Virus record (IMG/VR): IMGVR_UViG_2537561712_000020
Direction: 5' to 3' (one strand)
Length of the DNA: 4,254 nucleotides
From: a virus
Lineage: Duplodnaviria; Heunggongvirae; Uroviricota; Caudoviricetes
Shown here: positions 2,868 to 4,128 of the stretch, one piece after another
How positions within the stretch are numbered: position 1 is the stretch's first letter
Layout of the letters: each line of letters starts with the position of its first letter
Translations under genes and position numbers: made by a program
Notes under the pieces: model-generated
The model's input: only the letters and a program-made list of their open reading frames with translations
Told to the model about the DNA's origin: nothing
Databases searched by the model: none

Positions 2868-3275
2868 ATGAAAAACGAAACCTTCGGTGCTCGCCTCTTA
2901 TACAGGCGAAAAAAATTAAAACTGTCTCAGGCCGCATTAGGTAAGCTGGTCAAAGTGGCTCACGTAACAATTTCTCAATGGGAAAGAGATGAAACACAGC
3001 CAGCGGGGAAGAGATTATTCGCACTGAGCCAGGCGCTTCAGTGCTCGCCGACTTGGCTTCTTTTTGGAGATGAAGATAAGCAACCAGGCGAACCGATCCC
3101 AGATAATCAGCCAGTCAATCTGACAGAAGATCAAAAAGAGTTGCTTCAACTGTTCGACGCACTGCCTGAGTCAGAGCAAAAGGCTCTGTTGTCAGAGATG
3201 CGTGCTCGAGTTGAGAATTTCAACAAACTTTTTGAAGAACTACTCAAAGCTCGCAAAAGAAGCGCAAATAAATAA
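2868..3275 (+). CDS. dicA: DicA-like HTH (XRE-family) repressor; CI analogue with no S24 peptidase domain
   Basis: 135 aa. HTH segment LSQAALGKLVKVAHVTISQWERDE. Segments LFALSQALQCSPTWLLFGDEDKQP and ALPESEQKALLSEMRARVENFNKLFEELLKARKR match E. coli DicA as I remember it, including the 135-aa length. No Shine-Dalgarno sequence upstream of the ATG. Confidence 0.88.
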   Translation: MKNETFGARLLYRRKKLKLSQAALGKLVKVAHVTISQWERDETQPAGKRLFALSQALQCSPTWLLFGDEDKQPGEPIPDNQPVNLTEDQKELLQLFDALPESEQKALLSEMRARVENFNKLFEELLKARKRSANK

Positions 3276-3373
3276 CCCCCCTTTTTTTCGCAACTCTCTG
3301 TAATAAAAAGCACAAACTTTCAAATACTTGTGTTTTTTACATCAAGAAGCTTAGGTTTTTCTACACAAAAAGC

Positions 3374-3403
3374 TTGACCATAACTCTTAGGCTATTCTAA
3401 ATT
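3374..3403 (+). promoter_or_regulatory. Candidate rightward early promoter with embedded operator-like palindrome O3 (3386-3401)
   Basis: -35 TTGACC (3374-3379), 18-bp spacer, -10 TAAATT (3398-3403). O3 is CTTAG-GCTATT-CTAAA, the third copy of the TTAG-N6-CTAA core, sitting between the -35 and -10. Confidence 0.4.
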
Positions 3404-3616
3404 CTACTCATCAAGACACCGCACGGTGTTCTCAGCAAACAGTTCCGCTACCCGGCGTTAAGGGGAAGCAGAGGATTTCTCAGTGGGCGAGTCAAACATC
3501 AGAATGGAAGGCGTCCAGGGATCAGCAAAGAAACAGCGATGGCGCTTTATATTGATATCAGCGCCATTGCCGGACAGGTAAGAGTTATCAGAGCGGTAAC
3601 TAAGCGGTATGCGCCT

Positions 3617-3817
3617 TTACTTCAGAAAGTCTCTGGTGAGTGCACCGAAGATATTGTCAACGATTTCGTCATCGAACTGCGAGGACTCATCTTCAGTTAC
3701 AAGGTGACCACAATTTTTGCAGATGGCTCCCGCGAAACTGTCAGAGCCCTGCGGCTTAAAGGATGTGTCAAAGACTTCGCCACCACATTCTGGGCAAGAA
3801 AACTTGATTGTATTCAT
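3617..3817 (-). CDS. Small zinc-ribbon protein (CxxC-N21-CxxC) with acidic C-terminal tail; function unknown
   Basis: 66 aa from ATG 3817-3815: MNTIKFSCPECGGEVFDTSFKPQGSDSFAGAICKNCGHLVTEDESSQFDDEIVDNIFGALTRDFLK. GAGAGGAAA lies 8 nt upstream of this ATG; the TTG at 3823 used by the ORF track is too close to the SD. Codon usage is ordinary. The overlapping plus-strand 99-aa ORF (3539..3838) has no SD and 7 of its 8 Arg codons are AGA/CGG/CGA, so I treat that one as the antisense shadow. Confidence 0.6.
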   Translation of the reverse strand: MNTIKFSCPECGGEVFDTSFKPQGSDSFAGAICKNCGHLVTEDESSQFDDEIVDNIFGALTRDFLK

Positions 3818-3909
3818 AACCAATTTCCTCTCGAGTAACAGACCCCTCAGAGGATACCACCTCGCCTGACGTGGTTAAAAGCAGGCAACGCTAACCACAA
3901 GGAGCCGAC

Positions 3910-4128
3910 ATGCAGAAACGAGACCCCGTCATCATCGCGCCAGACTATACCGATGATGAACTTTATGAGTGGATGCACCAGAAAATTAATGCAGCGCAGG
4001 ATCTGAAATGGGCCAATGAAGCCAGGGCTAAGCAGGCTGAAAATCTGTCCGCTCTGGAGCAGGATATCACCAATCTGGAAAAAGCAGCGGCATTAAGCAT
4101 TGCCAGAATGATTACATACCCGCGTTAA
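3910..4128 (+). CDS. ydfC: YdfC-like small protein (Qin-prophage type), function unknown
   Basis: 72 aa, MQKRDPVIIAPDYTDDELYEWMHQKINAAQDLKWANEARAKQAENLSALEQDITNLEKAAALSIARMITYPR. AGGAG at 3900-3904 lies 5 nt before the ATG. Length and position downstream of dicA match K-12 ydfC. Symbol assigned from memory and synteny; treat as provisional. Confidence 0.7.
   Translation: MQKRDPVIIAPDYTDDELYEWMHQKINAAQDLKWANEARAKQAENLSALEQDITNLEKAAALSIARMITYPR

What the first reader, a model, noticed from the sequence alone, without database searches (positions are those of the whole stretch)
3404..3616. Roughly 340 bp without a confident gene downstream of the repressor: perfect palindrome at the predicted start site and a possible 32-codon ORF
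ACACCG-CA-CGGTGT (3416-3429) is a perfect 6-bp-arm palindrome beginning about 6 nt after the predicted start site of the 3374-3403 promoter. It could be a 5' stem-loop or a site for a second regulator. A GTG at 3483 has GAGGA 7 nt upstream and opens a 32-codon frame (VGESNIRMEGVQGSAKKQRWRFILISAPLPDR, stop 3579-3581) with a hydrophobic C-terminal half. In Qin-type prophages this operon encodes small ORFs and the DicF sRNA, so a leader peptide or regulatory RNA here is plausible but unproven.
Basis: partly seen in the sequence, partly recalled or inferred. Interest (0 to 1): 0.4.

Follow-up and report, generated by a model that had tools for sequence, protein, structure and literature searches.

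The report
Prophage operon leader, not a gene
The "empty" stretch is the untranslated start of a repressor-controlled prophage operon, running head-on into the terminator of a small zinc-ribbon gene on the other strand. The proposed 32-codon gene is only a frameshifted fragment of a longer, probably non-coding reading frame.

Summary
The palindrome (3416-3429) and the GTG ORF (3483-3581) are both present as described.

**The leader.** Positions 3409-3467 form a 59-nt transcribed leader, 95% identical to the K-12 Qin dicBp-to-ydfA 5'UTR.
- Across about 200 related prophage loci, conservation switches on at the predicted start site (CATCAA) and stops just before the first gene.
- This holds below more than 25 different promoter variants and above at least 6 different first genes.
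- The palindrome is invariant in the main class. Three other leader classes carry different inverted repeats at the same place, so an RNA hairpin is more likely than a shared operator. Its function is unproven.

**The 32-codon ORF.** It is not a conserved small gene.
- Most relatives carry one extra base, which fuses it to the 3539-3838 frame and gives 118 codons.
- That long frame is the codon-aligned antisense of the ECs_2282 zinc-ribbon gene (3617-3817, minus strand).
- ECs_2282 carries the selection signal: pN/pS is 0.15, against 0.96 for the long frame.

**The minus-strand hairpin.** Positions 3535-3571 form a stem-loop with a U-tract. It is conserved with compensatory changes across Escherichia, Klebsiella, Citrobacter and Enterobacter, and is probably the ECs_2282 terminator.

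Overall this is an ordinary but tidy anatomy. No Rfam family matches the window. Interest is low to moderate.

The parts
3374..3403 (+). Sigma-70-type promoter (TTGACC-18-TAAATT) of the early-left, dicB-type operon. It is flanked and overlapped by CTTAGG..CTA operator repeats at 3350-3363 and 3386-3399. Context for the finding.
   Evidence: 9 of 12 match. (repeat family D1 and inverted matches I1-I5, I8 to the dicC/dicA intergenic operators at 2801-2866); the -35 and two -10 positions are the only conserved upstream columns among 86 distinct relatives.
3409..3467 (+). Conserved 59-nt untranslated leader, a module shared by many Escherichia lambdoid prophages. It starts at the predicted transcription start (CATCAA) and ends at AAGGGGAA.
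   Evidence: 95% identical to the K-12 Qin dicBp-ydfA 5'UTR. Per-column identity rises from 0.4-0.7 to at least 0.98 at 3409 among 86 distinct sequences. More than 25 upstream variants and at least 6 downstream first genes. No Rfam match.
3415..3430 (+). Promoter-proximal hairpin: palindrome ACACCG-CA-CGGTGT at 3416-3429. As RNA it forms 5-6 bp with a GCAC loop, plus a G3415-U3430 closing pair.
   Evidence: -7.2 kcal/mol; 2.5% of shuffles fold as well. Three other leader classes have different stems at the same site: ACAGC/GCTGT, GCAC/GTGC and CAACGA/TCGTTG. Single copy per locus.
3442..3467 (+). Universal box GTTCCGCYACCC(C)GGCGTTAAGGGG(AA). It is shared by all leader classes, including a roughly 170-nt long-leader type, and ends in an SD-like AAGGGG.
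   Evidence: The GTDB scan found it only in Escherichia/Shigella genomes and a few MAG contigs. In some variants it lies 7-9 nt before the first gene's ATG.
3483..3581 (+). 32-codon GTG ORF (SD GAGGA at 3471-3475). It is the frameshift-truncated 5' end of a 118-codon ORF. One A is missing after 3490: GGGCGA-GTC against GGGCGAAGTC in relatives.
   Evidence: alignment; deleted allele in 11 contigs, undeleted in at least 80; the ORF is 118 codons in 74 of 87 loci; codons 2-19 have pN/pS 0.72, segregating sites [11,8,10] by codon position, and 54% of sites variable.
3539..3838 (+). 99-codon ATG ORF (phrog_21318). It is the codon-aligned antisense frame of ECs_2282 extended across its terminator. 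Most likely a shadow ORF that gene callers often annotate.
   Evidence: phrog_21318, E 2e-67; in the overlap the + frame has pN/pS 0.96 and 0.69, against 0.15 and 0.32 for the minus frame; variable sites [28,6,14] by + codon position. Evidence for coding: it stays open in all relatives and AF2 gives pLDDT 77.
3524..3571 (-). Terminator-like element of ECs_2282: a 12-bp stem (3560-3571 pairs with 3535-3546), a 13-nt loop, then UGUUUCUUUGC at 3534-3524 on the minus strand.
   Evidence: I14; z -3.1; 13 lineages, 85.9% of cells paired against 28-64% in slid controls, 5 of 12 pairs with changes on both sides, 0 of 500 shuffles reach the score. The commonest type at one pair is G-U on the minus strand, which would be a C-A mismatch on the plus strand.
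3617..3817 (-). ECs_2282-family zinc-ribbon gene (66 aa, CPEC...CKNC). It lies antisense to the operon. Context that explains the right half of the finding.
   Evidence: NF047912, 57.3 bits against a cutoff of 37; four Cys conserved; purifying selection. Annotated in RefSeq.
3851..3878 (-). Candidate extended -10 promoter for ECs_2282 (TTAACC-N16 ending in TGG-TATCCT). It lies inside a 37-nt block conserved beyond this gene.
   Evidence: Read directly from the sequence. The block is conserved. It falls below the scan threshold. Untested.

Best explanation
Positions 3404-3616 do not hold a gene. They form the zone where two convergent transcription units meet in a DicA-type lambdoid prophage.

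**Plus strand**
- The repressor-controlled promoter (3374-3403) starts the early-left, dicB-type operon transcript at about A3410.
- The first 59 nt (3409-3467) are a conserved untranslated leader. The palindrome there folds as a small RNA hairpin 5-6 nt from the 5' end.
- An SD-like box follows, where the first cistron normally begins.
- In this lineage the sequence after the leader carries no constrained plus-strand gene. The GTG ORF is a 118-codon open frame cut to 32 codons by a 1-nt deletion.
- That long frame is the codon-aligned mirror of the real gene on the other strand.

**Minus strand**
- The ECs_2282 zinc-ribbon gene (3617-3817) ends in a conserved stem-loop with a U-tract (3524-3571).
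- This element most likely terminates its transcript before it reaches the promoter.

**Shown**
- Homology, module boundaries and the frameshift.
- Which strand is under selection.
- Conservation of both hairpins.

**Inferred**
- The start site.
- That the 5' hairpin acts in RNA, most likely on leader stability, pausing or first-cistron translation.
- That the 3535-3571 hairpin terminates transcription.
For: **Leader**
- The K-12 Qin ydfA 5'UTR matches 3409-3467 at 95%.
- Conservation switches on at 3409 in 86 distinct sequences.
- It sits below more than 25 promoter variants and above at least 6 first genes.
- A full-length DicA-family repressor lies upstream.
- Operator repeats lie around the promoter.
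- ydfC, dicB and an exonuclease lie downstream in the identical O157 locus. The same leader heads an exonuclease-xis-int operon in phage HannyBb.

**5' hairpin**
- Four leader classes have different stems at the same site. One pair is flipped from C-G to G-C, and one class has a G-U pair.

**ORF**
- The extra base in relatives gives 118 codons.
- There is no codon periodicity, and pN/pS is 0.72 in the part unique to the GTG ORF.

**Strand under selection**
- ECs_2282 has pN/pS 0.15 and 0.32. The plus frame has 0.96 and 0.69.
- Among 32 DNA variants there are 13 distinct minus-strand proteins against 30 distinct plus-strand proteins.

**Terminator**
- Covariation across 13 lineages, with minus-strand G-U pairs.
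- One relative has a U8 tract (L131).
Against: - The start site is only predicted.
- With 5-6 unpaired 5' nucleotides, the hairpin is further from the end than classic 5' stabilisers.
- The leader as a whole folds no better than shuffles (z -0.16).
- Two of the four hairpin classes are not individually better than shuffles.
- One distant relative has a CATCAA...CAGCAAACAG leader with no hairpin.
- In the window the minus-strand stem has one C-A mismatch.
- The U-tract is imperfect, and poor in the Enterobacter relative.
- The long plus ORF stays open in every lineage down to about 45% identity.
- In non-E. coli relatives its 26 non-overlapping codons show pN/pS 0.39 with an excess of third-position changes.
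- AlphaFold2 models it more confidently (pLDDT 77) than ECs_2282 (55).
Confidence: 0.65

Rival explanations
1. The palindrome is a DNA operator for a second, dimeric regulator that blocks RNA polymerase at +7 to +20. One candidate is the host TetR-family protein DicD (YjdC).
For: It is a perfect 14-bp dyad, invariant in all main-class loci. YjdC/DicD is enriched at the dic locus by ChIP-qPCR, and lowers dicA and dicB transcripts when overproduced. Its site is unmapped (PMC9283627). yjdC is now annotated dicD in MG1655.
Against: Other leader classes replace it with inverted repeats that have different arm sequences, arm lengths (4-6 bp) and spacers (4-6 nt). One of them has a G-T position. That pattern fits a structure, not a shared recognition sequence. 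There is one copy per locus and none in the dicA-dicC intergenic region. No similar site lies near dicD.
Confidence: 0.18
2. The long plus-strand ORF (99-118 codons, phrog_21318) is a real first cistron overlapped antisense by ECs_2282. The window's 32-codon ORF would then be the N-terminus of a frameshifted pseudogene, with the 99-aa part possibly still made from ATG 3539.
For: It is open in all lineages, including relatives at about 45% identity. It is always co-oriented with the surrounding operon. The start codon changes from GTG to ATG in one lineage. The non-overlapping codons of non-E. coli relatives have pN/pS 0.39 and variable sites [10,11,20]. ECs_2282 almost never uses TTA, CTA or TCA, the codons that would give plus-strand stops: 1 of 35 occurrences. 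AF2 gives pLDDT 77.
Against: In the overlap, substitutions fall on minus-strand third positions, and the plus frame has pN/pS 0.96. The non-overlapping codons of E. coli variants show no periodicity: [11,8,10] and [11,8,12]. The conserved T-L...S-A residues and the purine-rich 'SD' are explained by the conserved minus-strand stem and U-tract. The codon-aligned antisense frame is the one expected to stay open by chance. No fold match was found.
Confidence: 0.25
3. The GTG ORF at 3483-3581 is a genuine small protein or leader peptide.
For: A good SD (GAGGA) lies 7 nt upstream. It sits exactly where first cistrons start in other leader variants.
Against: The 32-codon form exists only in the 1-nt-deletion allele. 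Its C-terminal half is an out-of-frame reading of another ORF. It has no family match and no coding-type substitution pattern.
Confidence: 0.04
4. The leader is a cis-acting antitermination or anti-pausing RNA (put-like), or a nut-like site that loads a factor onto RNA polymerase for read-through to the distal exonuclease, xis and int genes.
For: It starts at +1 of the PL-equivalent transcript, as HK022 putL does (PMC9378689). It is conserved as a discrete module regardless of immunity type and first gene. A hairpin is followed 8-12 nt later by a universal box.
Against: It has one 5-6 bp hairpin and no stable two-stem fold. It shows no similarity to HK022. There is no boxA consensus and no GNRA-like boxB loop (sequence). 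No N-like protein is found among the window ORFs. No Rfam match.
Confidence: 0.08

Closest known systems
5' untranslated leader of the dicBF (ydfABC-dicF-dicB) operon of E. coli K-12 cryptic prophage Qin, transcribed from dicBp under DicA repression
   Same: It has the same position: downstream of a DicA-family repressor gene and its terminator, and directly after an operator-flanked promoter. It is 95% identical over 59 nt, including the identical palindrome. ydfC and dicB lie further downstream.
   Different: The first cistrons differ. K-12 has ydfA and ydfB. This element has an antisense ECs_2282 gene under a long open frame. The operator sequence differs (CTTAGG... here, TTGTTAG... in K-12; PMC3441716). 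No DicF was detected in the matching O157 locus. No function of the leader or hairpin was reported in the papers read here (PMC10448788, PMC3441716).
Lambda and P22 nutL in the PL leader, and HK022 putL
   Same: Each is a conserved RNA element at the very start of the early-left transcript of a lambdoid phage. Each contains a small hairpin whose sequence differs between phage types.
   Different: There is no boxA, no GNRA-like pentaloop and no N-like first gene. There is no two-stem put fold and no sequence similarity.
Phage 'moron' units: a promoter, a small gene and an intrinsic terminator inserted in an operon that is silent in the lysogen
   Same: ECs_2282 has its own SD, a conserved downstream stem-loop with a U-tract and a candidate promoter. 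In every relative examined it lies next to the immunity region.
   Different: It is oriented head-on to the early-left promoter and lies under a long open antisense frame. Expression in lysogens is untested.
Shadow ORFs in the codon-aligned antisense frame of real genes
   Same: Plus-strand codon positions 1, 2, 3 face minus-strand positions 3, 2, 1. Plus-strand stops could arise only from TTA, CTA or TCA codons in the real gene. Substitutions follow the minus-strand reading frame.
   Different: The frame extends 26-45 codons beyond the real gene and stays open in all lineages sampled. This is more than a minimal shadow ORF needs.

Membership tests
Qin-type dicB operon leader (dicBp-ydfA 5'UTR) | A DicA-family repressor gene lies immediately upstream on the same strand | tested here: met
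   Window 2868-3275 matches NF007257 (transcriptional repressor DicA) over its full length, E 1.6e-72.
Qin-type dicB operon leader (dicBp-ydfA 5'UTR) | A sigma-70 promoter flanked by copies of the operator that is also found between the divergent repressor and cro-like genes | tested here: met
   Promoter at 3374-3403. CTTAGG..CTA repeats at 3350 and 3386 match sites at 2801-2866.
Qin-type dicB operon leader (dicBp-ydfA 5'UTR) | Sequence homology of the transcribed leader to K-12 | tested here: met
   3409-3467 is 95% identical to MG1655-derived strains (H51 and H53; alignment).
Qin-type dicB operon leader (dicBp-ydfA 5'UTR) | The operon continues into ydfC and dicB | tested here: met
   ydfC lies at 3910-4128. 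dicB lies 1.4 kb further on in the 99.8%-identical O157 locus.
Qin-type dicB operon leader (dicBp-ydfA 5'UTR) | The operon contains the DicF sRNA | tested here: not met
   No Rfam family reaches its gathering score in the 8.6-kb O157 locus, or in the window.
Qin-type dicB operon leader (dicBp-ydfA 5'UTR) | Transcription starts at the leader and is repressed by the DicA-like protein | not testable with these tools
   This needs 5'-end mapping and reporter assays.
Lambda-type nut site | A boxA consensus (CGCTCTTA) lies 5' of the hairpin | tested here: not met
   The sequence 5' of the hairpin is CATCAAG. No boxA-like string occurs in 3404-3470.
Lambda-type nut site | A boxB hairpin with a purine-rich GNRA-like pentaloop, and an N-like arginine-rich first gene | tested here: not met
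   The loop is CA or GCAC. The ORFs after the leader give no N-family hit in Pfam, NCBIfam or PHROGs.
HK022 put RNA | About 70 nt with two long stem-loops and sequence similarity to put | tested here: not met
   There is a single short hairpin and the fold z-score is -0.16. HK022 is not among the blastn hits in the phage collection.
5'-terminal stabiliser hairpin (ompA type) | The hairpin lies within about 2-4 nt of the 5' end | tested here: inconclusive
   With the predicted start at A3410 there are 5-6 unpaired nucleotides. The start site has not been mapped.
Intrinsic terminator (3524-3571, minus strand) | A stable G+C-rich stem conserved as a structure | tested here: met
   85.9% of cells paired, 5 pairs with compensatory changes, G-U pairs on the minus strand.
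Intrinsic terminator (3524-3571, minus strand) | A U-tract directly 3' of the stem | tested here: inconclusive
   The window has UGUUUCUUUGC. One relative has U8, and the tract is weak in the Enterobacter relative. The scan missed it because the loop is 13 nt.
Intrinsic terminator (3524-3571, minus strand) | Transcript 3' ends map there | not testable with these tools
   This needs Term-seq or 3' RACE.
Small protein or leader peptide gene (GTG 3483) | The ORF is conserved in frame and length among relatives, with purifying selection | tested here: not met
ECs_2282 family zinc-binding protein (NF047912) | HMM score above the curated cutoff, four conserved Cys, and purifying selection | tested here: met
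   57.3 bits against a cutoff of 37. C8, C11 and C36 are invariant and C33 nearly so. pN/pS is 0.15.

The most novel reading that the evidence does not exclude
ECs_2282 and the phrog_21318 frame may be a genuine antisense pair, conserved across Escherichia, Klebsiella, Citrobacter and Enterobacter prophages. The pair always sits head-on to the repressor-controlled early promoter. The plus frame would be kept open and translated, either as a protein or simply to keep ribosomes on the leader so that Rho does not silence the distal operon. The O157-lineage frameshift that creates the 32-codon ORF would then be a polarity-inducing lesion that further silences a toxic dicB-type operon.
Probability: 0.22. 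Interest if true: 0.6.

Novelty: new member of a known kind. Interest (0 to 1): 0.3.

Why it matters
- **Annotation.** RefSeq and phage records alternate between calling the 99-aa plus-strand ORF and the 66-aa zinc-ribbon gene at this locus. The selection data say the minus-strand gene is the constrained one.
- **Mobile leader module.** The result defines a discrete leader for dicB-type operons, with a promoter-proximal hairpin and a universal box. It can be tested directly in the existing K-12 dicBp reporter system, because K-12 carries the same 59 nt.
- **Recurrent architecture.** A small gene with its own terminator repeatedly faces the early-left promoter. If that arrangement affects leakiness of a toxic operon (dicB, ydfD), it would bear on how cryptic prophages are kept silent.
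- **Scope.** None of this changes present understanding in a major way.

Tried and rejected
**RNA families**
- Rfam with permissive filters found nothing in the window.
- Nothing meaningful was found in the long-leader relative.

**Leader mechanisms**
- Rho-loading (rut) idea: only the first 50 nt or so are C-rich (GC skew -0.29). The next 150 nt are G-rich, so this was not pursued.
- An 11-codon GTG mini-ORF inside the leader (3426-3461) was rejected. It has no SD, and the C-run length variation shifts its frame in relatives.
- DicD/YjdC as binder of the palindrome: no published site and no similar dyad near dicD.

**Structure prediction**
- ECs_2282 gave pLDDT 55 and the plus ORF gave 77. 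The alignments were shallow, so these are treated as weak evidence.
- Foldseek against PDB and BFVD gave no match with E <= 0.001.
- The afdb50 library was unavailable.

**Collection scans**
- The 15-base pattern used on the metagenome collection was too unspecific and returned mostly chance hits. Only loci passing the full box pattern were used.
- The GTDB scan showed that the box is confined to Escherichia/Shigella, so cross-genus covariation of the leader could not be obtained.

**Synonymous-site test**
- A run of invariant synonymous sites in ECs_2282 codons 36-42 is suggestive of dual constraint. By a simple run argument it is not significant.

**Literature**
- A search for ECs2282 returned nothing.

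Full report
**1. What the window is**

The window is part of an E. coli O157-type lambdoid prophage.
- It matches O157:H7 chromosomes at 99.8%.
- In those records the flanking genes are replication genes, a YdaT-like gene and a Cro/CI-type regulator on the minus strand. A helix-turn-helix repressor (window 2868-3275) lies on the plus strand.
- Downstream come an "ECs_2282 family putative zinc-binding protein" on the minus strand, then ydfC, dicB, a DUF1482 gene and an exonuclease on the plus strand.
- The repressor is a full-length DicA-family protein (NF007257, E 1.6e-72).
- The scan tool finds TTGACC-18-TAAATT at 3374-3403.
- Repeats of CTTAGG..CTA lie at 3350-3363 and 3386-3399. They match sites in the divergent regulator intergenic region at 2801-2866.
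- This is the arrangement described for dicBp of K-12 Qin (PMC10448788).

**2. Check of the observation**

- The palindrome ACACCG-CA-CGGTGT is at 3416-3429.
- GAGGA is at 3471-3475.
- The GTG ORF at 3483-3581 translates as stated.
- Within the window alone neither feature exceeds chance. There are eight perfect 6-bp-arm inverted repeats, against 6.7 +/- 3.3 in shuffles. The chance of one in a given 30 nt is about 0.02.
- No Rfam family matches anywhere in the window, even with permissive filters.

**3. The left part (3409-3467) is a conserved leader module**

- BLAST against complete E. coli genomes shows that query positions 134-192 (window 3409-3467) occur in thousands of records. These include K-12 derivatives at 95% identity.
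- In MG1655 this stretch is the sequence between dicBp and the ydfA start codon.
- I fetched about 200 loci carrying the leader from IMG/VR, GTDB genomes and metagenomes.
- Among 86 distinct sequences with the palindrome, per-column identity to the consensus is 0.4-0.7 upstream. The exceptions are the -35 hexamer and two -10 positions.
- Identity jumps to at least 0.98 at 3409 (CATCAA) and stays there to about 3453.
- More than 25 different promoter-proximal sequences precede the block. At least six different first cistrons follow AAGGGGAA: ydfA, the window type and four others.
- The second half, GTTCCGCYACCC(C)GGCGTTAAGGGG, is universal. It also ends a different leader of about 170 nt. That long leader occurs in phages carrying PaaA2/ParE or HigBA modules beside the repressor.
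- In the GTDB species-representative scan the box occurs only in Escherichia/Shigella and a few MAG contigs.
- The same leader heads the exonuclease-xis-int operon of the temperate phage HannyBb. It is therefore the PL-equivalent leader of working phages too.

**4. The palindrome**

- In the main class it is invariant, which says nothing for or against a structure.
- Three further classes of short leader keep (C/T)ATCAA and the universal box, but carry different inverted repeats at the same place:
  - ACAGC-ACGGC-GCTGT. Compared with the main class, pair 4 is flipped from C-G to G-C. A subtype starts GCAGC, giving a G-U pair.
  - GCAC-AACG-GTGC.
  - CAACGA-ACCGCA-TCGTTG.
- In each class the hairpin is the minimum-energy structure of the 33-nt segment.
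- Judged by energy alone, the main class and the CAACGA class are in the best 2-3% of shuffles. The other two are not distinguished (19% and 52%).
- The argument therefore rests on four different stems coinciding in position.
- Different arm sequences, arm lengths and loop lengths fit a structure better than a recognition site for one protein.
- One distant relative has CATCAA-CAGCAAACAG with no hairpin at all, so the element is not indispensable.
- The whole leader folds no better than shuffles (z -0.16). That argues against a put-like two-stem RNA.
- There is no boxA, no GNRA-like loop and no N-like first gene.
- The palindrome is single-copy in the O157 and K-12 loci.
- A host TetR-family protein, YjdC (now annotated dicD), is reported at the dic locus by ChIP-qPCR, with no mapped site (PMC9283627). 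This remains a lead for the operator reading. No similar dyad lies near dicD.

**5. The 32-codon ORF**

- I aligned the window with phage Evi and E. coli strains M6 and 3CM. These have GGGCGAAGTC or GGGCGAACTC where the window and O157 have GGGCGA-GTC.
- With the extra base, the GTG frame runs 118 codons to 3838. It joins the 99-codon ATG ORF (3539-3838), which PHROGs lists as phrog_21318.
- In IMG/VR the deleted allele occurs in 11 contigs and the undeleted allele in at least 80.
- Among 87 loci the frame is 118 codons in 74 and 32 codons in 10.
- The 32-codon ORF is therefore a lineage-specific truncation, and its hydrophobic tail is an out-of-frame reading.
- The codons unique to the GTG extension are the most variable part of the locus: 54% of sites segregate among 32 distinct sequences. 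The sites spread evenly over codon positions ([11,8,10]) and pN/pS is 0.72.
- In Klebsiella, Citrobacter and Enterobacter relatives the extension is absent.

**6. Which strand codes between 3539 and 3838**

- The long plus frame is the codon-aligned antisense of ECs_2282 (3617-3817, minus strand). Plus-strand positions 1, 2, 3 face minus-strand positions 3, 2, 1.
- ECs_2282 passes its NCBIfam model (57.3 bits against a cutoff of 37). It keeps its four cysteines in all homologues.
- Among E. coli-level variants, variable sites in the overlap number [28,6,14] by plus-strand codon position. They therefore pile up on minus-strand third positions.
- pN/pS is 0.15 for ECs_2282 and 0.96 for the plus frame. 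Thirty-two DNA variants encode 13 minus-strand proteins but 30 plus-strand proteins.
- Among the other genera the values are 0.32 and 0.69.
- The minus-strand gene is therefore the constrained one.

Several observations still favour the plus frame:
- It stays open in every lineage, down to relatives at about 45% identity. The zinc-ribbon ORF is also intact in those relatives.
- It is always co-oriented with the surrounding operon.
- Its 26 non-overlapping codons show pN/pS 0.39 and a third-position excess in non-E. coli relatives.
- ECs_2282 almost never uses the three codons that would give plus-strand stops.
- AlphaFold2 gives pLDDT 77 for the plus ORF against 55 for ECs_2282. Both alignments were shallow, and there was no fold match.

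Part of that support dissolves on inspection. The conserved T-L...S-A residues and the purine-rich "SD" before the ATG coincide with the stem and U-tract described in section 7. I give a real plus-strand gene roughly one chance in four.

**7. The hairpin at 3535-3571**

- An 11-12 bp inverted repeat with a 13-nt loop lies 47 nt beyond the ECs_2282 stop (I14, z -3.1).
- On the minus strand it is followed by UGUUUCUUUGC.
- A stem-loop sits at the same distance in all 13 lineages compared, with different flanking stem sequences.
- On a gap-free alignment, 85.9% of cells pair, against 28-64% when the partner is slid.
- Five of twelve pairs change on both sides, and no shuffle in 500 reaches the covariation score.
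- At one pair the commonest type is G-U on the minus strand, which would be a C-A mismatch on the plus strand.
- One relative has a U8 tract. The Enterobacter relative has a poor one.
- I read this as the intrinsic terminator of ECs_2282.
- The scan missed it because its loop limit is 8 nt.

**8. Synthesis**

- Positions 3404-3616 are the meeting zone of two convergent units.
- The plus strand carries the repressor-controlled operon leader, followed by an unconstrained and here frameshifted open frame.
- The minus strand carries the 3' end and terminator of a small zinc-ribbon gene.
- Because the early-left promoter is repressed in a lysogen, the zinc-ribbon gene would be free to be expressed there. 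This step is an inference.
- In part of the O157 lineage ECs_2282 itself carries a nonsense codon (E14*, 16 IMG/VR loci). RefSeq then annotates the 99-aa plus ORF instead. The module therefore looks to be decaying in these cryptic prophages.

**9. Novelty and score**

- The operon type and its repressor control are known.
- The papers I read on dicB regulation do not describe the leader as a discrete mobile module with a structurally conserved promoter-proximal hairpin (PMC10448788, PMC3441716). I cannot exclude older subscription literature.
- The finding as written resolves into ordinary parts. I score interest at 0.3 and novelty as a new member of a known kind.

Noticed in passing
window 3851-3887: A 37-nt block (CCTCAGAGGATACCACCTCGCCTGACGTGGTTAAAAG) is 100% conserved upstream of ydfC, even in operons that carry ydfA-ydfB instead of ECs_2282. 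It is also partly conserved in Citrobacter, Klebsiella and Enterobacter relatives. On the minus strand it reads as an extended -10 promoter (TTAACC-N16 ending in TGG-TATCCT). It also contains the inverted repeat ACCAC..GTGGT.
   Followed up: partly
window 3776-3778 (ECs_2282 codon 14); IMG/VR loci such as L105, L143-L145: Sixteen O157-type loci carry GAA->TAA (E14*) in ECs_2282. In such genomes RefSeq annotates the antisense 99-aa ORF as 'hypothetical protein' instead. The window itself has the intact codon.
   Followed up: partly
L135 2826-2965 (also L123, L131, L133, L137): An alternative leader of about 170 nt starts AACCCACCCCGCCCC right after varied promoters and joins the same universal box. 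It occurs in phages with PaaA2/ParE or HigBA modules beside the repressor. It folds worse than shuffles (z +1.9), has a C-rich 5' end, and matches neither Rfam nor HK022.
   Followed up: partly
window 3304-3339: The inverted repeat TAAAAAGCACAA...TTGTGTTTTTTA has A and T runs on either side, 29 nt after the repressor stop. It is a likely bidirectional terminator that insulates the repressor gene from the operon promoter (I9).
   Followed up: no
L001 (O157 locus, 8.6 kb around the window): No DicF reaches Rfam gathering score between ydfC and dicB in this prophage, although dicB is present.
   Followed up: partly
L479 1854-1916: A distant relative has a leader reading CATCAA-CAGCAAACAG. This is the main-class leader with the hairpin segment missing. 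It runs straight into a strong SD and the plus ORF.
   Followed up: no
L126-L130, L139, L140, L479-L481: In every genus examined, the ECs_2282 homologue lies within about 0.5-1 kb of a CI-, Cro- or DicA-type regulator gene, and always antisense to the neighbouring early operon. In the Enterobacter locus it is co-oriented with a sieB gene.
   Followed up: partly
NC_000913.3 4362733-4363308 (L477): MG1655 b4135 (yjdC) is now annotated dicD, 'DNA-binding transcriptional regulator DicD'. Its binding site in the dic locus is not given in the paper read here.
   Followed up: partly
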